A stretch of DNA of 64,000 nt from Peribolospora baueri. Taxonomy: Eukaryota. The position numbers and the translations under genes were made by a program. The stretch covers positions 1 to 64,000 of the forward strand of contig JAMDHS010000014.1 in NCBI GenBank assembly GCA_029717555.1. The letters are read 5' to 3'. The notes under the pieces are model-generated. The model was not told the DNA's origin. It saw nothing but the letters and a program-made list of their open reading frames with translations, and did no database searches. Positions 8,450 to 50,194 of the stretch are shown piece by piece (positions within the stretch are counted from its first letter, which is position 1; the number at the start of each line of letters is the position of its first letter).

Positions 8450-11400
8450 ATGACGTCGAGGCAGACCAACGACGCAGCCACCCGGCCTGCGAGGGAGATG
8501 GCCTCCGCGTCGGCCGGCCCGCTCGTCGGTTCTTCTTCCTCGTCTTCCCTGCCCGGTTTCATCTTCAAGTATCAAGGCGGACATCAAGACCAGCACCAGC
8601 ACGGCCGGCCTGCGTTCTCCCCCTCCGTCAGCAGAGACGGTGACGACGGCGCGGGCGAGGGCGCCTGCGAGGACGACCCCGAGCTCAGCTCTTCCCGGCA
8701 CGCCTCCTCTTCTTCCTATTCCCAGAAGATACCTTTCCTCGAGGCGCACGGCTTGGAGGAAGCGCGCGCCCGACGGTCACAACCACGCTCGACCATGGCC
8801 ACCATCGCCCACCATCCGCCTCCCGCTTCCTCGTCGTCGTCGTCGTCGTCGTCCTCCTTCTCCTCCGCCGGTCATCTCCCCACCCACCTCTACCAAGCCT
8901 CCGACCGTCCCTACCCTCCGTCCCCCTCCCCGCCTCTCCTCCCCACCCATCTCCGCCGCCGACCAGGCCTGCCTGTGAGAAAACTGCTCGCTCTCCGACG
9001 CGCGGCCCCGCTCCTCCTCTTCGCTGGCGGAGCCAGCGTCCTCGTCGCCTTGTACATCTTCCTCTTGGGCGCCGCGCCCGGCTCCTCCACCTGGCGGACT
9101 GTCTCCCGTCCTTGGCGATGGAAGTGGCCCTCCTCCTCCTCCACCACCACCTTTTCCGACCACCTTTCCTCCCTCGACTTGCCCCCTCCCCCACAACCCT
9201 TCGTCTGGTCCGGCGGAGAACCGCTCCGACCACCGCCAATCATGGCTCACTCCCTCTTCTTCGGAAAGGCGGGCGGCACGGCCGACGGGAGCGGGAACAA
9301 GTGTTTGGAAGCTTGGGTGGCCCGAGGCGAGACGTGTCCAGCACTCGACTTGTCCCGCGCAAAGATGCTCGATGCGGTTTGGGCGTGGGTTAACGGGAGG
9401 TGAGCGAGTGAGCGAGCGCGCGCGCGAGAGAGAGAGCCCGTTCAAATCGAACATACGGTTTTTAATCCTCTCTTCCGCATTCCCGTCCCCGCCCCCTCCT
9501 CTTTTTGCTTTTCCTCCCAGCGAACCGCGCCACCGCTCGTCCCGGTCGTTTTGGTCCAACAAGCCGGTCAATTACTCCATCGTTCACCTCCCACAAGGCT
9601 CGCCGTCGCCGTCGCAATCACCGCGCGAGGCGTCTCCCTCTCACGCCGACGACCGCAGACTGGAAAAGAGGCTCAGCGGACACCGTCCCGGTATCCAGCC
9701 TCCGGTGTCGAACAATGAACCGGGGTCCCCCAATTCCGACGGCAACGTCGCCAAGATGGACGAGAAGTGGTTCCGGTGCGTTCGCCTTAGCTCGTCTGTC
9801 CCCTCATCCTCCTCCCGTGTGACGATGCTGATTCCGATCGACGATTTTCTTCTCTTCGTTTTCTTTGTCGCCCACGGTTTTCTTCTCTTCCTACCCCGCA
9901 GCGATCACGACGAGCTCCGTTATTCCTTCCGTTCCATCTACCAACACATGGGCCCTTACATCCGTACCTCGCACATCGTCGCCGGCGACTTTGCCCACCC
10001 CTACGTCTCCCCACACTACCTCGAGGCGACGAATGGGAGCACGACCGAGATACACGACCCTACAGCGGACGATAAGGGTCGTGTGGACCCGGGACGAGTA
10101 GGCTTCACTGACCTCTTCCCCGCCGTCCCTTCTTCCACCGTAGGTGACGAAGGTGCTGCCGTCGGCTGGCGAGCTGGCCAATGGCCGCAGTGGTTGGACG
10201 CCGAGAGCGAGTGGACACGGACACGGCAGGGCAGCACCGACGGTTCCGGCTTCGGCGGCGTGCGCATCCACCACCACTGGACCCTCTTTTCCATCCCCCC
10301 GCCCCTCCGCGACAGCGCGCCGCCACCGGCGCCGGAGGGGGAGAGGGACGAGGAGGAAGAGAGGTGGAAGGATAGCGTGTTGCCCACGTTTAACAGCTTT
10401 GCGATCGAGGCGCAGATGGCCAACATCCCTGACTTGGGAGAGAATTTGTCAGTTCGTCTCTTCTTCTCCTTCAAAGGCGATCGATCGATCGATGCATGCT
10501 CATGCCATCCTTGCTTCCTCTCTGCTCTCCCGTGCCCGCGACGACCAGCATCTACAACAACGACGATTTCTTCCTCACCTCCGACCTCACCGTCTCCGAC
10601 TTTGTCACCCCGCTCTACGGAAGCGTCTTCCGCATGCAGGGCAACTTTCGCGTCGATCCCGTCGCGAACAGCATGGCGAACCCCAAGGGCGAGTGGCCTC
10701 AGCTTCAGCGGAGCTCTTTCGTACTCGGCGAGCGGTTCGGCGGAAGGAAGAGGCCTTATATCGCTCATGGTCAGTCCCCGCTTTCCCCCCGTCACCGCCG
10801 AGCTGCGAGCTGGCTGGCTGACTGACCTCGCCGGCCGTCGTCGTGGCTACCGCCACCTCCATTCGATCCGCAGTCACCAAGACGTTCTCCACGCCGCTCC
10901 TCCAAGAGGCCCGACTCATGTTCCCCTCCGCCTTCGCCGCGACTGCCTCGCACCGGTTCCGCGGAAAAGGCCATGACACGGTTGCCGTCTTCCTCGCCAA
11001 CCACATGACCGTCGAGAGACACCGTGAGGCACTGCTCTGGAGCTTCCTCGTGGCCAAGGGCGACGCCAACGCGGACGGGTATCTGGACAGGCAGGAGATG
11101 GCGGCCCTCCTCGCCGTCATGAAGGATGGTCTCGCCGATGGGCAGAGTCAGAAGCCCGTCACGATGCCACATCGGATGACGTTGCGCGACGATCGACACG
11201 TTCAGAAGCTTAGGAAGGCCCGCTTGCCAGCGCCGCGAGAAACGAGTAAGTTGGTTCGCTTTTCTTCCTTCCTCGACGGCGCTCTCGTGGCTCATATGAT
11301 CCGCTTCTGCTTCCCCTGCTCTCATCCCGCAGAGTACCGCTTCTCGTCCCGAGATGGCTACCCCTTCCTGCGCCGACTGTCACCGCAAACGATTGACAAG

Positions 11401-12314
11401 AAGACCCACTGGCCGGACGTCAGCCTGTCGTCCAAGCCCGAACTTTGCATCCTCCGCTTGGACCAATGCTTCCCAGAGGCCTACTACGCTACCGACGATT
11501 CCACCGACCCGGCCAAGGGAAAGGGAAAGGGAAAGTCGTACGTGTGGGCGAGCGACGTGTTTAAGAGGTTCGCGTTCGACAAGTTTGAGTGCGGCGATTG
11601 TCGTGAGTGTCCCGTATGGCGTCATACACGCACACGAGCCGCGCAAGGGGGATTCATCATCGAGTCTACGGCTGACCGCCATGGTTTTTTTTGTCTTTGT
11701 GCCCGCCTTCGTCTTCCCATCCTCCGCCAGTCGTGTACCACCTGATGAGCCTTTCGGGTAACTACGGTCTCGAGGCCTTCCTCCCGCCGCGCGAATCATC
11801 GTTCCCCGTCAACGAATCCATGTCAGTCCCAGACGGCATCGAACCCACACCTTTCCTCCCGTTGGGACCCACCTGGCGCCCGCTCGATTTTTCCCTCGCC
11901 AACGTCGCCGCGTCGACCGGTTGGCCGGGACAGAGTAGGAGGGAGTTTGCAATGCGGCTCATTCATAGGTATTCCTATATCCTAGGTGAGCCTTCCTCCT
12001 TTTTTTTGTTGATCTCCTTCGATGCCGGTTTTCGCAAACCAAACGGTTTCGTGGCATTTCCTTCGTCCTTCCCTTTCTTCGCTTTTGTCCCATCGACCCC
12101 GAATTTGCGCGCCAGGCGAATCTCCCACCACGTTCATCGCCCTCGAATTTCCTCGCCAAGTCACCACCGAGTTTGCCAAACTCACCAAGGCCCACTCGGT
12201 GTTTGTGTGCGTGAACGACGACATCAGCAAAGGTCGGGAGAGAATCGAGAGTGAGTTGTCGCGGTTGTTTTTGCTTGCGGATTGTGTGGGACAACCGTCG
12301 CCTTCTGACCATCG

Positions 12315-12350
<36 letters not shown>

Positions 12351-12428
12351 GGTGGCGCCGCCCCAGACATGTTCTCCCATTGGCTTCGCACCTCGTTTCC
12401 CACACCTCTGCCCAACGAAATCGTCTGA
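8450..12428 (+). CDS. XPT1: Stealth-family sugar-1-phosphotransferase, Cryptococcus Xpt1-like; type II membrane protein, multi-exon
   Basis: TM anchor (LLLFAGGASVLVALYIFLLGAA). Stealth CR1 LDAVWAWVNG; CR2 DHDELRYSFRS...PTFNSFAIEAQMANIPDLGENFIYNNDDFF; CR3 H..KTFSTPLLQEA..MFP; CR4 VFVCVNDDI. Ends WLRTSFPTPLPNEIV* (TGA 12426-12428). Start codon uncertain. Confidence 0.85.
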
Positions 12429-13551
12429 ACTAGACTCGCCCTTCCTTCTTCTGCTTCTTGCACGCCATAGACACCGCTCGCTCTCGTCCCTCCGTCCCCT
12501 TTCCGCATTCCCTCCCTCTCCCCTTCCCTGCCCGGCTTCGCTTCGAACCGACCGGACCATGGACGACACCCACCCGTACATCCATCCATTCGTCCATCCA
12601 TTCGTTCTTCCCGTCCCCCGCCGCCTATCGATCGGATCGCCGGAGCATGTCATGTGACGTGTCTGTCGCCGCCGCTTGCATGTACTTGTATCCTTGTACC
12701 CTCTCTCTCTCCTTCCCTCCTTCTCTCACTTCCTCGGCGCCAGTCGCGGACCAGCCAACCTACCTAGCAAGCATGCCATCGACTTGGGACCGAAACGAAA
12801 CGAAACGAAAGGGATAAGATGGGCATCTTCTGTTCGCGCGGCGAGTGGGGATCCGCAAGCAAAGGCCACACACAACACAACACCAACACCAACACGGCAC
12901 GGCACGGTAGGAGATCGCATCCACCTCGACATGGTGTGATCATGGATGGGGGTTACCTTTGCGCTCGCTGGCCAAACTCGGCCAGAGAGGATTGTTAGAC
13001 GCGAGGATGAAACGGTGGACGACGATGATGAGGATGAACGCGACGACTCTCTGCGCACACCCGAATCGTCAGCGCCGTTTATAGCGACTAGTGCGCTGTT
13101 CCTTCTTCTTCCTCTACGACCACCACCATTCGAAATACAGATAGATGGCTGTGTGAGAATCAGGCGCCCGTAAAAGCTGAATCTGTCGCCGCTCCCGCAC
13201 CCTTTCTCCTTGGCGTACTTCACATTGGCAAAAGCCACCTCGTCTTCACAGCTGGCGCACTAGCAACGGGAACATCGGACAGGACTTCCTTCCTCGCGCC
13301 GCGTCCGCCGCCGTTTCCCTACATATGTACGCGCCAAGCCTCGCAATTTTTCCGTTTCGTTTGTTTGTTTCTCTTCAACAATGTTTTCTTTCCTGGATAG
13401 CCGACGAAGGCGGACGGCCCTGTGTTTTCGACCTCGCGTCGTGGTGGAGCACGCTTGCGCGGGCGCTTCGCTTTCCGATGAGACCTGTCATATGATGGGG
13501 AGCAGGCCGAGACATTGGGACATCCTCTCCTTTCTTCTTTACTCCCTCCCT

Positions 13552-13557
13552 TATATA
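13552..13557 (+). promoter_or_regulatory. TATA box of the small secreted Cys-rich gene
   Basis: TATATA about 110 bp upstream of ATG 13663, followed by a CT/CA-rich leader. Confidence 0.5.
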
Positions 13558-13662
13558 CCTTCTTCCACCCACATCTCTGTGACGACACCCTAACTGACCC
13601 ACCCCTCTATCTCTCCAACTCCTTCCAACAACCTCGCTTGACCTCGCTCGCTCCACACCGAA

Positions 13663-13971
13663 ATGAGCCTCTACTCTCTCACTCGCCTCGTAGGGCCGCT
13701 TGTGTTCTCCACCGCGATCTTAGCGACGGTCACCATCGTTGGAACTAGGGGTCTCCCTACGTCCGACGGCACCTACTTCCTCGCTGCCGCCGCCAGACTA
13801 GCTCCTCGCGACCGGTGTTACCCGGTCTGCGTACTCAACCGTTGCTTTTGCCCGGCCTCGTGCAACGGTGTCTGTCCAGACTACGGCTCTGGGTGGGACG
13901 GTCCGGACCCCAACAACAGGCACCAGTATGGCCATCACTTTGGTGGATACTCTTTCGGGCAAGGCGGCTGA
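13663..13971 (+). CDS. Orphan small secreted cysteine-rich precursor (102 aa; signal peptide + propeptide + 6-Cys peptide)
   Basis: Intronless ORF. Hydrophobic N-terminus LVGPLVFSTAILATVTIVG, likely cleavage TRG|LP, propeptide ending LAPR, then DRCYPVCVLNRCFCPASCNGVC and a G/Y/H-rich tail. Upstream TATA box. Confidence 0.7.
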   Translation: MSLYSLTRLVGPLVFSTAILATVTIVGTRGLPTSDGTYFLAAAARLAPRDRCYPVCVLNRCFCPASCNGVCPDYGSGWDGPDPNNRHQYGHHFGGYSFGQGG

Positions 13972-14030
13972 GACCACTTGGACTTGGACGCGCACACATC
14001 CGAACGTCGCCAGGACACTGTGGACGGGCG

Positions 14031-15639
14031 TAAGCCAACTGCTCCTACGGCTTGATCGACGAGGTGAGCATACTTTCTTTCCTTTTTTCCCCCCTATATA
14101 TGTAGTCTAGACTGGGCCAATGGACTAAACTTTTAATTACCTCCTCTCGAACACAGGCCCAATGATCCATACCCAGCTGGATCGAGCAAAAGGCGACCGA
14201 AGCCCGAGAGACAATGAAGAAGCAGGGTGTTATCTACGGCGGCTCCTTGCCATGCCGACACATGTGCAGATATCAGAGCGGGTCCTTCTACCCATACCCT
14301 TTGTTTAAGGACATCGAGGTGAGCCAGGACAGCCGCTTGGGGAACTTGAAGGAGCGACCTCGTGTCTCGCGAATTGACCAGCTTTCCCCATGGAACAGTC
14401 AGCACTATTGGCGCATTGAGCCGTCGGTCAAATACCTTCTGCGATCTCGACGCCAAGTGCTTGATCCGATCCGATCAGGAGATTCTCTCTTGGACTCACC
14501 AGCTTGGGACCCTCCCCATTGCATCTTCCCCGTCTCGTTATCCTTTCAGTATGACCCCTTCCGCTTCATAGCCGAGAACAACAAGAAGTACGGTTTCGTG
14601 TTCAGTTTGTACGAGTACGAAGCGACTATTCCCATGCTTTGGAAGGAGACCCAAAGGTGAGGGCAATCACGACTGTACGCACGTGCACATGCTGAAGGCA
14701 AACCTGCGCTGCTCTCGTTCCTTCGTTTGCTCGTGTTGCGTCGCCTTTTTACTTTTCGACACGACCCCCGTCCTTTTCGTCCAACAGAATTCATCGCCCA
14801 AAATCCACAGTACCTCGCCAGTGATAACGCTATGGACTTGATCTCCGACGACGGGGGACTCGGCGTAACAACCGGTGTCAGTTTTGTGGTCCAAGTGTGT
14901 CTCGAGGCGTGATCCTGCTTCTTCTCGTATAGATGTTCGGCCGGGTCATTCTGACACCACCTACCTTTTGTGCGCTGCCTATAACAGCATCGAAATCGGC
15001 ATCTCTCGATCTCTGGGCGCTCTGAAGCATACGAGAAGTAAATTTTGACCACTTGGGACAAAGCAGGCGGCAGTTCTTCTACGAGGTGCGCGCCTTTGCT
15101 CTCAAGCCTGTCATGGAGGACATCCACGCATATTTCTCTTCACCTTTTTAACTCTATGATACTCTTTCTTTGTCTCTTTGCCCCTTTAAGCGGTAGGGCG
15201 ACGCAACCGGTGGCACTCCCTCGCGGGCCTCGCTTTTCCTCAATAGGAGCCAGCTTCACTTCTTCGAGGTGTGTACGCGTGTGATACGGGCCGGGTCGCG
15301 CCCCTTCGAATATCCAGGATGTGCCTAGATCTAAAACGTCTTACTCATTTTACGTGCTGTCGGCGTTGTGGCATATCAGGATATCGGTGAGCGTTCGGCG
15401 GCCGTTCCCATGCAGGGCCTCTTCCTCGTGTGCAAATCTCTACCTCGCGCTTAACTCGACTCGGTTTCGCTGAATTAATGTTCCCTTATGTGCCTGCAAC
15501 CCCCTTATCCTATCCTACAACCGCCAATTGAACATCGTCCCCAAATAGCTTATTAACCCCCCCCCCCCCCACCCTCTTCTTCACGCACTGCTCAAGAAGG
15601 CTGGCCAAGCAGGGCACCTCCTGCAGCTGCGATTCGCAG
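14031..15639 (+). pseudogene. 5'-truncated, disabled GT15 (KRE2/MNT1/KTR) alpha-1,2-mannosyltransferase remnant
   Basis: Exon remnants: CSYGLIDE|AQ*SIPSWIE..VIYGGSLPCRHMCRYQSG, HYWRIEPSVKY+FCDLD|YDPFRFIAENNKKYGFVFSLYEYEATIPMLWKET, DNAMDLISDDGG, LD+KAGG+FFYE|R*GDAP+HSLA..LFLNRSQLHFFE|DIG. Stops at 14163 (W>TGA) and 15194 (W>TAG) plus many frameshifts. Confidence 0.9.
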
Positions 15640-16184
15640 GTGAAGGTGAGCTTCCACATCACACCGTCTTATCCTCCGATCGTTCTTGCGTTTGACAAGG
15701 GCCGGTCGGACGGGACACTTTGGCTCGTCTTCCATTTGTACCCCCTTCTCATCTATCTATCTGCCTGTCTGTCTGTCCTCTTCACACCTTTACACCTTCT
15801 CTGTGGCCCCTTCAGCCACGTAGCGTACTCATGCCTGCCTCTACCTCGATATGAGAGGCTTGTGGGGCAAAAGTTCGTCCGAAATCGTATTTCGTCGTAA
15901 GATGGGGGGTGGGGCGGGGTGGGCGGGTGGAAAGGAATATTCGTAAGAGGTACAAGCAAGATAGATAGACAGATGGATAGATGGATAGATAGGTAGAGGG
16001 GGGCACGACGATGGATGGGAGGGGGAGGGGAGGGGGGATGGGGGGATGGAAGACGCCTTTGGCGAAGCGAAAGCGAAGGCAAAGGCGATGGCGATGGGGA
16101 GAGCAAGGGAAGGCGAGGCGAGCAAAGGAAGAGAAACACACACACATGCATACATGTATGTATATGTGCGACGCCAGCCCGCTT

Positions 16185-18976
16185 TCACTCCTCGTCGTCG
16201 TTGTCGACATGGCGGTTACCCGACCGTCCAATCTCGTTATCCGACTCCTCGTTTTTGTCGAGGTGACGGAAGGAGATGTAGAAGATGGCACCGGCGACAA
16301 AGGCGGCGATGGCGATGCCAGAGTACATGCCCACCAGGTACGGGTCCGCCGATACGCTCACCAGCGCTTCGCCGATTGCGTTGGCCAGTGCGGTCATGAA
16401 GAGGAAGATGGCCTGGGAGAAGAAAAAAAAATGAACAAAGGAAGACGGTGGGATGTGGAGGATGGGGACTCGCGCGACGCACCATGACGAGCGACTTCAT
16501 GCGCGCGGGCGCCTTGAGGTAAGCGTACTCGAGACCTGCGGGGCGTCACGTCACACGTTCAGTCGGGGCATTCGTCCGTAGACTCGACTCGACTCGATCC
16601 ATCTCCGCGCGCGCTCACCGGTGATGGAGGCGAAAATCTCGGAAAAGGCGATGAGGACGTAAGCGGGGATCTGAATCCAGCTGTGAGCGCGGAGCGGAAC
16701 GGTTAGGGGGGGTCAGACAGAAGTGAACAGAAGGAGGAGCTAGTTAGCGTCGGGACATACACGTTGATGCCGACGGGGTCGCAAGGGTTGTCGTTGGTGC
16801 CGAGGCCGTTCCGCATGCATGGGCTCTGCTGGTAGATCTTGTACTGGAGCACGGCGGCGTAAACCATGGAGAGGGAGGCGAAGAAGAAACCAAAGGTGAT
16901 ACGGGCGATCGGCCTGAACGGTCGGTGGATACGACGGAAGAAGGGGTAGACGACGCGGTCGACGATGGGGATGAAGACGATGAGCGTGATGGCGTCAAAG
17001 TTCTGGATCAGGTCGTTGGGCACGCCTCTGAGGTCCATGACGCCGGCCTGAGAGATGAGGTTGTTGGTCCTGGAAAGGGGGGGGGGACCGGTAAGCGAGG
17101 AGGCTGTTCAAGGGGACACGTCATTCTCGCGACTTACATCTGGTTGTAGCTGTCAACGAGGGACGAAGGCGAAGCGAGGTGAGCGCGAGGCGTGTGGGGA
17201 TGACGATCACCGGCAAAGAAGAAAAACTCACGCGAGCCAGTAGATCGGCTACGGAGAGGGACGGGATGAAGAGAGAGAGAGAGAGAGGCGTGTTAAGAAG
17301 AACGAGAAGAGCCGAGCCGAGCCGAGTCGAGCCGGACTGGCGACTCACGTAAAAAGCAAAGACCTTGCAGGCGCTAAAGGTGCGCTTGACCTCGTCGACA
17401 AACGTGTCGTCCCACGTGAGCCAGGACGGCTTGTTGCGTCCCTCGGCGTCCATGACGACCTCCTTTGTCTTTTTCGTCGGCCCTCCGTGGACGGCGATGT
17501 AGGTCGGCTTGGCCCTGTCCCACAGGCTGCCGTCGATCTTTTGGGTGATCGTCTTGTAGAGCGTCACCGGGTTCCAGGACCAGGCGCTGGCGAGGACGAG
17601 GCGGCAGACCTTTGCGGCTTCGAGGATGACGGAGCCACGCGGGGGCAACTTGACGTACTTGTTCCTGCCGAGGACGAGGAGGGTGGGCACGAGGATGAAG
17701 ACGGCGGTAGGGAGGAGGAAAGAGAGCCAGAAGCCGACGTGGCGCTCGGACTCGGTGGTGGCGATGGAGGAGAGGGAGCCGAGGTTGATGAAGAAGTAGA
17801 AATAGAGGAAGACGCGGCCGACGGTCGCGCTGGGGTCGACGATGACCCTCTCGCCCTTGTCGGTGGTGCGGACCACCTGGACTTGGCGGGTGAGCTGGTC
17901 AGCGATGAGGGGAGCGACGTTGGACTTGATACCGCCGGTGCCGAGACCCATGATGATCATGCCGACGATGAGACCGGGGAAGGCGCCGTTATGGAGGAGG
18001 CTGGGAGGGATGGAGGTGAGGAGGATGATGAGAAGGCCGGCGATGTAGACGCTGGTGAAGACACAGATGGCCTTGAAGCGGCCCCAGCGGGTGTCGGCGA
18101 GGATGGCGCCGAGGAAGGCTGTAGGCGGTGAGGGAGACGAAGTGAGTTCGAATTCGTCGTTGACGGGCGAGGTGTGATTTGACGAGACTCACGGGTGACG
18201 TAGCAGAAGAAGCTAAAGAAGGTGGTGAGACCGGTGGCAGCCTGCTGGCCTCTACCTGAAGAAGAGAAGAAGGAGAAGAGGAAGAAGAAAGGGTAAACAT
18301 TAAAATGCCAAGCGTGCGCCGACGGGAAGGAGGGAGTGAAGGACGTGCTCACCGATAGCACCGGGGACGTCGGAGGCGGTCATGGCCCTTCCGGTCGTCG
18401 AGCCGGCAGGAAGTGGGTTCTGGATGTAGTCTGTATGAATCGATGGTGTGAGAGCGTTGACCTAAAACAAAACCGGGGCGTGAACTCACTCTGGAAGGGA
18501 CCTATCATTCCGTAGTAGGCGAAGCGCTCGGCGAACCTGCGAAGCGGGGGGCGACACGAGGAGGTGAACGGGAGAGCGAAAGGACAGGAGGAGGAGAGAG
18601 AGGAGAACTCACTCGACGCCGACGACAAAGTAGGCACTCAGGGGGATTTTATCGCTGACCTTGCGGAGCGTCACGCGCTCCTCCTCGGTGGGCAGGCTCT
18701 CGCCTTCGGCAAGGGAAGCGTTGAGGTAGGCGGGCGGGGGATCGCCAACACGGGCGACGTTGACGTCTCCGCCGTCGCCTTCTTTTCCGACGGGCACCTT
18801 TTCGTGGTCATTGTTCTGGAGCCTTTCCTTGGCGAGGGATTGGCGGATCTCGACTTGGGCCTCGGCGTCGACGGCCGTCGACAAGTGTTCGGTTCCGGCT
18901 GCGAAGGGGGAGGGAGACACGGTGGTGAGCGGGGAGGGGACGGGTGGGCGGGGGATGGACATGGTCACTCACCCAT
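16185..18976 (-). CDS. PTR2: POT/PTR-family di/tripeptide transporter (MFS), many exons
   Basis: ATG+G at 18976-18973 then a GTGAGT intron. VEFAERFAYYG (ExxERFxYYG), ILADTRWGRFKAI, GLGTGGIKSNVAPLIADQ, FLYFYFFINLGSLS (PTR2 motif), GVPNDLIQNFD, SEIFASITGLEYAYLKAPARMKSLVM; stop 16185-16187. Confidence 0.95.
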
Positions 18977-48298: not shown

Positions 48299-50194
48299 AT
48301 GTCTCCCCCATCTCCATCTCCATCTCCATCTTCCTCGCCGCCGCCCGCCCGCATCCTCCTCGCCCTCGCCCTCCTCGCCTCTTCCGCCCTCCTGCCCCTC
48401 GCCGTCTCCGCGCCCAACCCCGCCCACGACAGCGCACCCCAGCGCCACTCCCGATCACCCCTCCCTGCCCTCGACGACCGGCCCTTGACCATCCCCCTCC
48501 GCCGCACTCGCCGCGCCCCCCGCCAAGGCGAAGAGCTGCTCGCATGGATGGACGCCGAGACGGCGCACGTCCGCGCCAAGCACGGCTTCGTTCACGCCGG
48601 CGCCGAGGCCGCCAAGCAGGCGAGGCGAGCCGCCGAGGGGGACGCGAGCACCATCGGCAAGCGCGGCTCCACCGGCGCCGTCGATCTCGCCAACTACGGC
48701 CACGACTCGACCTACTACGGCTCGCTCAGCATTGGCACCCCCGCCAGGGCCTATAACGCCATCTTGGACACCGGCTCCTCCGACCTCTGGCTCGCTTCAA
48801 CCGGCTGCTACGCCGGCTGTCAGGGCGTCGACGCCTTCGACCCCACCGCCTCCTCCTCCTTCAAGAACCTCTCTCAGAACTTTGACATCCAGTATGGCAG
48901 CGGAGAAGTCGCCGGCACACTCGCCCAGGACGACATGACCATGGGCGGCTTCAGCGTCAACGGTCAGACCTTGGGTGCGTGCCGCTCCTCTTTCGCTCAC
49001 CGCCGCCCGCGCTCATCTTCGCCTCCTCTCTCCCTCTTCAGCTGTCGTCAACTATGTCAACCCGCCGGGCTTGATCGACGGAGGCCTCTCCGGTCTCATG
49101 GGTTTGGGATGGAAGGTGAGCGAACCCAAGTCCCTCCTCATCGTCCATTCGAGCCGCTCGCTCACCCCCCTCGTGTTCCCCCCTCCTCAGCAAATCGCCG
49201 CCTCGGGAGCTACGCCGTTCTGGCAACAGCTCGCCGCGAACGGTGCGCTGGCGTCCCCAGAGTTCAGCCTCTTCATCACCCGCTTCGTCGACGATGCCCA
49301 GGCCAAGGACCTCGAGCCGGGCGGAATCTTCACGCTCGGCGGCACCAACTCGTCCCTCTACACTGGCAACGTCAATTACATTGACATTCCCTCCGGCCAG
49401 GAAGGCTATTGGATGATCCCCCTGCAAGGCGAGAGAGCGCCCTCGTAGCCCTCGGTCGCGTGACGTGCTCACCGTCTTCTCTTTCCTCCTCCGCCCCTCA
49501 GGCATGGCCATCAACGGCTCGACGATCAACATCGGCACCCCGGCGCCCAACGTGGCCATCGACAGCGGCACGACGCTCGTCGGAGGGCCCAACAGCGTCA
49601 TCGCCGACCTCTACTCCCACATCCCCGGCGCGGCCGCCGCCGGTGGCGCCAACCAGGGCTACTACACCTTCCCGTGCGACACGCAGGTCGGCGTCTCGCT
49701 CACCTTTGGCGGCGTCACTTACAACGTCTCCCCCGCTGACTTTAACCTCGGCACGGCGACTAGCACCAGCGGCCGCGGAAGTCATCAGAGTAACGAGTGT
49801 CTTGGCGGGTTCTTTGAGCTCGGTGATAGCGCTGGATCGCTCGACTGGATCATCGGCGATACCTTCCTGGTGAGCGCTGGGCCGGCTGGTCGTTTTGAAA
49901 GCCACGTTCCTCACCCTCCCCTCTTGTTATCCTCCTCTGGCGTCTCCCCCGTAGAAAAACGTCTACTCCGTCTTCCGCTACAACCCGCCCTCAGTCGGCT
50001 TCGCCCAGCTCTCCTCCACCGCCCAGGCTTCCGTCGGCACAGCCGTCCCGAGCAGCGTCGCCACCCAAGTCTCTGGCGGCATCTCCGGCAACAGCGCTCA
50101 CGGAGACGTCCACTCCCGCATCACGTCCTCCTTCCTCGCCGCCGCGCTCGTCGGCGTCGTCGGCGGCGCTGCGGCCGCGCTTGGCTTGTTCTGA
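48299..50194 (+). CDS. Secreted A1 (pepsin-like) aspartic protease, probably GPI-anchored
   Basis: Signal ILLALALLASSALLPLAVSA; propeptide ending KR; catalytic ILDTGSSDLW and VAIDSGTT; flap IQYGSG; WIIGDTFL|KNVYSVFR..VGFA; Ser/Thr linker, GNSA and a hydrophobic C-terminus. Confidence 0.93.

What the first reader, a model, noticed from the sequence alone, without database searches (positions are those of the whole stretch)
13663..13971. Orphan prepro-peptide: signal peptide + LxxR prodomain + 6-Cys core (candidate new antimicrobial/effector family)
Seen: an intact ORF with a TATA box, a hydrophobic signal ending TRG|LP and a propeptide ending LAPR. The predicted 53-aa mature peptide (from 13810) is DRCYPVCVLNRCFCPASCNGVCPDYGSGWDGPDPNNRHQYGHHFGGYSFGQGG, with Cys spacing C-x3-C-x4-C-x-C-x3-C-x3-C. 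Known: fungal Kex2-processed prodomain effectors and antifungal peptides often have an LxxR site followed by a disulfide-rich core. Inference: three disulfides, a beta-hairpin (CVLNRCFC) and a Gly/Tyr/His tail that could bind metal or cell wall. I do not recognise this spacing as a hydrophobin (8 Cys), PAF/AFP or a classical defensin. It is the only non-housekeeping-type intact gene in the window.
Basis: partly seen in the sequence, partly recalled or inferred. Interest (0 to 1): 0.8.

Follow-up and report, generated by a model that had tools for sequence, protein, structure and literature searches.

The report
Shortened copy of secreted cysteine-peptide precursor
This fungal gene is a shortened third copy of a two-peptide secreted precursor with no known relatives; it still encodes the whole conserved first peptide, which may be a new kind of antimicrobial, though no activity or expression has been shown.

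Summary
The ORF and its features are as described, but it is neither an orphan nor complete. The genome holds two collapsed copies of a 203-aa paralog: signal, LxxR pro-piece, the same 6-Cys core, KR, acidic spacer, second 4-Cys core. The window copy is a diverged duplicate, moved together with a KRE2-type mannosyltransferase pseudogene. A small deletion puts its stop at the KR site, so it encodes almost exactly the first processed peptide. The family is under purifying selection (mature part dN/dS 0.11; Cys core 4 synonymous, 0 replacement changes). The window copy has no indel in 102 codons, against 14 frameshifts in 203 codons of the pseudogene beside it (P 0.001-0.07). A close relative has the same truncated copy. 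No homolog was found in 5.8 billion proteins, 1.84 billion representatives, Pfam, PDB or metagenomes. The peptide is near neutral (charge -1 at pH 7, +2 at pH 5), unlike AFP/BP/NFAP2. Best guess: a Kex2-released, disulfide-bonded, acid-active antimicrobial (about 0.4); function is untested.

The parts
12918..13662 (+). Upstream part of the duplicated block (promoter region shared with the two source-locus copies)
   Evidence: blastn to ends of C58 and C4, 74-79% identity with many gaps; DNA further upstream is single copy
13552..13557 (+). TATA-like box; kept in the window and C4 copies, degraded in the C58 copy
13663..13752 (+). Predicted signal peptide, residues 1-30, cut after Gly30
   Evidence: hydropathy; helix 6-29 in the model of the paralog; small residues at -3/-1 in both paralogs. 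SignalP not available
13753..13809 (+). Pro-piece, residues 31-49, ending L-A-P-R (L-A-S-R in the paralog)
   Evidence: motif definition in PMC8528282
13810..13875 (+). Six-cysteine core (two CxxVC, one CxCPxxC, levomeric gamma-core pattern)
   Evidence: codons 52-72: 4 synonymous and 0 replacement differences from the paralog; motif scan
13876..13968 (+). Gly/Asp/Pro linker and Gly/His/Tyr/Phe tail
   Evidence: 28 of 31 residues identical to the paralog
13969..13971 (+). Stop codon created by a 6-nt deletion at the position of the paralog's KR site (residues 104-105)
   Evidence: alignment; same stop in runs X3 and X4 of organism B (table 7)
13972..14029 (+). Non-coding remnant of the spacer; a 15-nt deletion, then a deletion of about 0.39 kb that removed the second core and the 3' end
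   Evidence: length worked out by hand from those coordinates
14030..15876 (+). 5'-truncated pseudogene of a GT15 (KRE2/KTR-type) alpha-1,2-mannosyltransferase, carried in the same duplication
   Evidence: PF01793; 86-88% identity to the intact gene on C58; 2 stops and 14 frameshifting insertions in 203 codons

Best explanation
A small lineage-restricted gene family of a basidiomycete fungus encodes a secreted precursor that Kex2 cuts into disulfide-bonded peptides. The long form (203 aa, two copies) is signal (1-30), pro-piece ending LxxR (31-49), core 1 (50-103, 6 Cys plus a Gly/His/aromatic tail), KR, an acidic spacer with further Arg sites, and core 2 (155-203, 4 Cys). The window gene is a third copy, duplicated to a new site with a neighbouring mannosyltransferase fragment. 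It lost core 2, and its stop fell at the KR site, so it would still give a 53-aa core 1. Most likely role: a mycocin-like peptide against competing microbes. The three-disulfide head gives stability and target binding; the His tail turns the net charge positive at acid pH and may bind Zn or Cu. Shown: gene structure, copies, selection on the family. Inferred: secretion and cleavage (about 0.85), that the window copy is still functional (about 0.55), antimicrobial role (about 0.45).
For: Paralog of 203 aa, 80% identical over 102 aa. Depth 206-219 on the paralog against 90-134 on flanks and on the window copy, so two collapsed copies; 127-bp graph overlaps to two entry and two exit contigs. Mature region: 10.5 synonymous and 4.5 replacement differences, dN/dS 0.11, binomial P 0.0006. 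Window ORF: 0 indels in 102 codons; the adjacent pseudogene has 14 frameshifts in 615 nt, P 0.0009; where the source-locus pseudogene can be compared it has 0 indels in 419 nt against 8 in the window, so they arose on the window branch. TATA kept. Organism B has three copies, including the same truncated one, and one of its long copies has a 10-nt deletion between the cores, a second loss of core 2 with core 1 kept. Kex2-type gene present. Charge -1.0 at pH 7, +2.2 at pH 5, +4.4 at pH 4. Mycocins are made as pre-pro-toxins, share little sequence and often act at acid pH (PMC12715866, passages). Zn makes the Gly/His peptide shepherin I antifungal (PMC10698721, abstract).
Against: No activity data and no characterised relative. 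Not cationic at neutral pH, whereas AFP, BP and NFAP2 members are basic (PMC13525654). The gamma-core pattern occurs in 75% of shuffles. Most of the dN/dS signal predates the window copy; tests on the window branch alone are not significant (P 0.05-0.15), and the 4.5 replacements match the 5.3 expected at the pseudogene's rate. The indel test falls to P 0.07 if only the nearest four exons are used, and the ORF was picked because it is open. The copy lost its own 3' end and runs into pseudogene DNA. Organism B is close (38% shared words) and from the same study, so shared truncation is weak evidence of selection. Strong conservation of the core is not what an arms-race toxin would show. Structure models are poor (pLDDT 54 and 41).
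Confidence: 0.4

Rival explanations
1. The family is real, but the window copy is a young pseudogene: a duplicated passenger that was cut by deletions and has not yet been hit inside its first 102 codons.
For: It sits in a decaying duplicated block next to a pseudogene; three deletions follow codon 102; own 3' end lost; replacement count in the mature part fits the neutral rate; signal region dN/dS 1.5.
Against: No indel in 306 nt where 2.7-7 are expected; the stop lands on the processing site; TATA, start codon, hydrophobic core, LxxR and all 6 Cys are kept; the three changes in the mature part that can be placed on this branch besides codon 51 are synonymous.
Confidence: 0.4
2. The peptides are surface or matrix components, like Ustilago Rep1: released by Kex2, they self-assemble through the Gly/Tyr/Phe/His tail and coat the wall.
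For: Rep1 is a Kex2-processed basidiomycete precursor whose peptides form amyloid-like fibrils (PMC8528282); neutral charge; strongly conserved aromatic/Gly tail; gene dosage raised to three copies.
Against: No tandem repeats between Kex2 sites; tight Cys cluster; the tail is polar, with 4 Asp in the peptide.
Confidence: 0.2
3. A secreted metal-binding peptide (Cu/Zn scavenging or detoxification) using His and possibly Cys as ligands.
For: CxC and CxxxC clusters; 3-4 His in a short tail; slightly acidic pI 5.6-6.3.
Against: Cysteines in the secretory pathway are normally oxidised (established knowledge); even Cys numbers in both cores (6 and 4); no metallothionein match in Pfam.
Confidence: 0.12
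4. A host-directed effector (plant, lichen partner or fungal host) of the Kex2-processed pro-domain class, or a signalling peptide.
For: Fits the K2PP pattern: signal, short pro-piece, LxxR, Cys-rich mature part (PMC8528282); lineage-restricted; in a rearranged duplicated region.
Against: The organism's lifestyle is unknown; purifying, not diversifying, selection on the mature part; only three copies.
Confidence: 0.2
5. The two cores of the long form act as one two-chain toxin (as K1, K2 or zymocin subunits come from one precursor); the window copy makes only the first chain.
For: Two Cys cores separated by an acidic spacer with several Arg sites; precedent in PMC12715866 (passages).
Against: Each core has an even number of Cys and needs no inter-chain bond; core 2 was lost twice while core 1 was kept; core 2 takes 2 replacements among 4 listed changes in its last 27 codons in organism B.
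Confidence: 0.12

Closest known systems
Kex2-processed pro-domain (K2PP) secreted proteins (PMC8528282, part 1 of 3 read)
   Same: Signal peptide, short N-terminal pro-piece, LxxR site with Leu at P4 and Pro at P2, Cys-rich mature part
   Different: The long form has further sites and a second core, so it lies between that review's class 1 (several peptides) and class 2 (pro-domain); no sequence or fold link to any effector; no known host
Fungal antifungal proteins AFP, BP, NFAP2 (PMC13525654 abstract, sections 3 and 20, passages; PMC10273333 passages)
   Same: Pre-pro form, about 5.8 kDa, 6 Cys, a gamma-core pattern; CxCPxxC like the conserved ACNCPNNC stretch of NFAP2 (0.4% of shuffles, noticed after the fact)
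   Different: All 6 Cys within 20 residues (NFAP2: Cys 9, 11, 15, 23, 40, 49); levomeric, not dextromeric gamma-core; not basic; long Gly/His tail; no hit to their PDB entries by sequence or fold
Yeast mycocins / killer pre-pro-toxins (PMC12715866 passages)
   Same: One secreted precursor processed into one or more chains; chromosomal examples exist; little sequence likeness among them; acid optimum
   Different: No sequence or structure match; no killing shown; no immunity gene found; cores are shorter than HM-1 (88 aa)
KEX2-processed repeat proteins, KEPs, including Rep1 (PMC6339444 passages and section 6)
   Same: Signal peptide and several Kex2 sites releasing peptides
   Different: Two unlike cores that share only CxxVC...CxCP, not three or more repeats
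Shepherin I (PMC10698721 abstract)
   Same: Gly/His-rich segment; possible Zn-dependent activity
   Different: Plant peptide; only compositional likeness to the tail

Membership tests
K2PP pre-pro-protein | N-terminal signal peptide | tested here: inconclusive
   Hydrophobic stretch and -3/-1 rule fit in both paralogs; no SignalP available
K2PP pre-pro-protein | KR, RR or LxxR site in the first half after a pro-piece | tested here: met
   LAPR at 46-49; LASR in the paralog
K2PP pre-pro-protein | Cleavage by Kex2 shown | not testable with these tools
   A P-domain convertase gene exists on C659; cleavage needs protein work
AFP family | Dextromeric gamma-core and 6 or more Cys | tested here: not met
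   6 Cys, but no G-x-C-x(3,9)-C (criteria)
BP family | 8 or more Cys and two levomeric-1 gamma-cores | tested here: not met
   6 Cys; one levomeric-1 site
NFAP2 family | Dextromeric gamma-core in the C-terminal part; Cys at 9, 11, 15, 23, 40, 49 | tested here: not met
   Only CxCPxxC shared; spacing differs; no PDB sequence hit
AFP/BP/NFAP2 superfamily | Basic character | tested here: not met
   pI 6.3, charge -1.0 at pH 7
KEP | Three or more repeats separated by Kex2 sites | tested here: not met
   Two dissimilar cores in the long form, one in the window copy
Hydrophobin | Eight Cys in the conserved pattern (recalled) | tested here: not met
   6 Cys in core 1; no Pfam hit
Fungal RiPP (dikaritin) precursor | Repeated cores and a linked UstYa/DUF3328 gene (recalled) | tested here: inconclusive
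   No repeats; PF11807 not found, but the control rang nowhere
Mycocin | Kills other fungi | not testable with these tools
   Needs an assay

The most novel reading that the evidence does not exclude
Core 1 founds a new family of fungal antimicrobial peptides: a 20-residue three-disulfide head with an undescribed Cys spacing, joined to a Gly/His tail that switches activity on at acid pH or with Zn/Cu. The window copy is a working single-peptide gene that arose when a deletion turned the Kex2 site into a stop.
Probability: 0.25. Interest if true: 0.7.

Novelty: new variant of a known kind. Interest (0 to 1): 0.4.

Why it matters
Genes for antagonistic peptides are hard to find by homology, and this family has no detectable relative. 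The 53-residue peptide is short enough to make and test directly. If active, it adds a small disulfide scaffold and a non-cationic, pH- or metal-dependent mode to fungal antimicrobial peptides. The three copies also show how a two-peptide precursor can be reduced to one peptide. If it is inactive, or the window copy is silent, this is an ordinary lineage-specific small secreted protein and a decaying duplicate, of which fungal genomes have many.

Tried and rejected
Off-frame artefact of a Ser/Thr-rich or mannosyltransferase gene: rejected; the Cys frame is the one under purifying selection, and the intact GT15 gene has a different N-terminus (exons; translation). Allele of a hybrid genome: rejected; flanking DNA is single copy. 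Homolog searches with no result: 0 of 198 candidates for the long form, 111-356 aa; 0 of 4 for the window protein, 56-179 aa; proteins over 356 aa were not searched with that tool; 0 of 1,835,955,588 representatives; Atlas, no usable hit twice; 0 of 299 metagenome stretches; Pfam 0 for 4 of 4 queries; PDB sequences, best E 0.81-0.97, chance level; plasmids none; Rfam none in 12000-17000. A looser pattern in the own genome gave 42 matches against 33 for the control, 3 of them the known cores; the other 39 were only looked at in the listing, mostly simple repeats. Foldseek and VIA-align found nothing for a pLDDT-54 model, which says nothing about the fold. Expression: no RNA holder listed. The core 1 / core 2 complex was not folded, so that question is open. 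A link between the peptide and KRE2 (named, as recalled, for killer-toxin resistance; only a search listing seen) was considered; adjacency and co-duplication explain it, and the extra copies are pseudogenes. One literature search for such peptides in basidiomycete yeasts returned 0 papers. The host lineage could not be named: the best named hits of the neighbouring PTR2 are Ceratobasidium/Rhizoctonia at 49-53%. Supplements of the papers were not read; the KEP tables of PMC6339444 could hold similar precursors.

Full report
Observation. TATATA lies at 13552. Of 248 ATG ORFs of 60 aa or more in the window only this one has both a hydrophobic start and six clustered Cys; 0 of 5,527 ORFs in 30 shuffled windows do.

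Setting. The genome has 22.7 Mb in 668 contigs, about 60% G+C in this window and many introns. The best named hits of the neighbouring peptide transporter are basidiomycete proteins at 49-53%, so the lineage is poorly sampled and its lifestyle is unknown. The ORF lies between a Stealth-family gene and the transporter. Directly behind it is a 5'-truncated GT15 mannosyltransferase pseudogene, 14030-15876, with 2 stops and 14 frameshifting insertions in 203 codons relative to the intact gene on C58.

It is a truncated paralog. A search of the genome finds a second ORF on C251, 80% identical over 102 residues and 203 aa long. It continues past the window's stop with KR (104-105), an acidic spacer holding RR (123), LSAR (138) and PETR (154), and a second core of about 49 aa with four Cys. 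Both cores contain CxxVC...CxCP. C251 overlaps two entry contigs (C58, C4) and two exit contigs (C358, C108) by 127 identical bases, and has depth 206-219 against 90-134 for its flanks and the window copy, so it stands for two collapsed copies. One path through the graph reads: intact GT15 gene, peptide gene, GT15 fragment, a gene with a weak Sfi1 hit (E 0.002), inverted peptide gene, SRP54; the orientation of the middle part is not resolved. The window holds a diverged copy of the unit 'promoter, peptide gene, GT15 fragment', about 12918-15876; the DNA upstream is single copy. In this copy a 6-nt deletion removes the KR site and leaves a stop in its place; a 15-nt and an approximately 0.39-kb deletion follow. 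The product thus ends one residue short of the core 1 that Kex2 cleavage and trimming of the basic residues would release from the long form (inference).

Selection. Window copy against long copy: mature 53 codons, 10.5 synonymous and 4.5 replacement differences, dN/dS 0.11, P 0.0006; codons 52-72, 4 and 0; signal region dN/dS 1.5; pro-piece 0 and 4. The family therefore encodes a protein whose mature part matters. Whether the window copy is still alive is less sure. For: no indel in 306 nt, where the adjacent pseudogene's rate predicts 7.0 (P 0.0009), or 2.7 from the nearest four exons (P 0.07); over 419 comparable bases the source-locus fragment has 0 indels and the window 8; the TATA box is kept here and on C4 but degraded on C58. 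Against: substitution tests on this branch alone give P 0.05-0.15, the replacement count fits the neutral rate, the 3' end is lost, and the ORF was chosen for being open.

A related organism. Four runs of one study hold the long gene: two of organism A (possibly the source) and two of organism B at 37-38% of words. Three were laid. B has three copies. One has loose ends that match the window copy, the stop included (29 of 30 letters, compared by eye). Of two long copies, one shares letters with the window type (positions 348-363, 438, 441, 602-619), which suggests that the window copy came from it and that in A the two long copies were later made identical (inference). A 10-nt deletion lies between the cores in one B contig and an 18-nt in-frame deletion in the signal region in one B contig; they could not be phased. 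No listed change touches a Cys; 13 further differences were not shown. B is close and from the same study, so it is weak support.

Relatives elsewhere. None was found by sequence, language-model features, family libraries or Cys-pattern scans; the limits are listed under Tried and rejected. These collections hold few annotated genomes of this lineage, so absence is expected in part. AlphaFold2 without an alignment gives a hairpin at mature residues 6-8 and 11-13 (pLDDT 65-69 for residues 1-20, mean 54) and nothing reliable for the long form (mean 41); fold searches were empty.

Likely working. Shown: gene structure, copy history, constraint on core 1, a Kex2-type gene in the genome. Inferred: signal removal after Gly30, Kex2 cleavage after LxxR (Leu at P4 and Pro at P2 are among the accepted residues in PMC8528282, part 1 of 3 read), three disulfides, secretion of a 5.8-kDa peptide. 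Its charge is -1.0 at pH 7 and +2.2 at pH 5. I put an antimicrobial role first (about 0.45): mycocins are pre-pro-proteins with little mutual likeness and often an acid optimum (PMC12715866, passages), and a Gly/His peptide can become antifungal with Zn (PMC10698721, abstract). The gamma-core pattern adds little, since 75% of shuffles have one. Rivals are a Rep1-like surface peptide, a metal binder, a host effector or signal, and a two-chain toxin; separately, the window copy may be a young pseudogene (about 0.4).

Comparison and verdict. It works like a Kex2-processed Cys-rich pre-pro-peptide. It fails the tested criteria of AFP, BP and NFAP2 (PMC13525654 abstract, sections 3 and 20 and passages; PMC10273333 passages) and of KEPs (PMC6339444 passages and section 6). 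It shares CxCPxxC with NFAP2's most conserved stretch, a lead only. One search for such peptides in basidiomycete yeasts found 0 papers. Verdict: a real, apparently undescribed peptide family of a known kind; the flagged gene is its shortened third copy; function and expression are untested. Interest 0.4.

Noticed in passing
window 14030-15876: GT15 mannosyltransferase pseudogene with a dense run of 1-2 nt insertions from about 14850 to 15350, far more insertions than deletions; cause unexplained
   Followed up: partly
L003 1-721 with L011, L012, L013, L004: Two apparently identical peptide genes in inverted orientation flank about 5.9 kb (GT15 fragment plus an Sfi1-like gene); a likely site of inversion or gene conversion, since organism B's two long copies differ
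   Followed up: partly
L003 45-188 (minus strand): Core 2 has a KR pair (180-181) between its two Cys pairs, so it could be cut into a two-chain disulfide-linked peptide
   Followed up: no
L003, sites at residues 49, 105, 154: Three of the predicted cleavage sites are followed by Asp
   Followed up: no
window 13577-13598: A stretch of about 20 nt is nearly identical in all three promoters although they differ by several indels; possible regulatory site
   Followed up: no
window 14030-14035: A good 5' splice-site-like sequence lies 58 nt after the stop, also on C358; the 3' UTR could be spliced
   Followed up: no
window 9372-11745: Stealth-family gene (CR2 and CR3 hits) just upstream of the duplicated block
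   Followed up: no
window 48299-49384: Aspartyl protease gene
   Followed up: no
window 17121-17960: The PTR2 transporter is at most 53% identical to any listed protein; the host lineage is poorly represented in protein databases
   Followed up: partly
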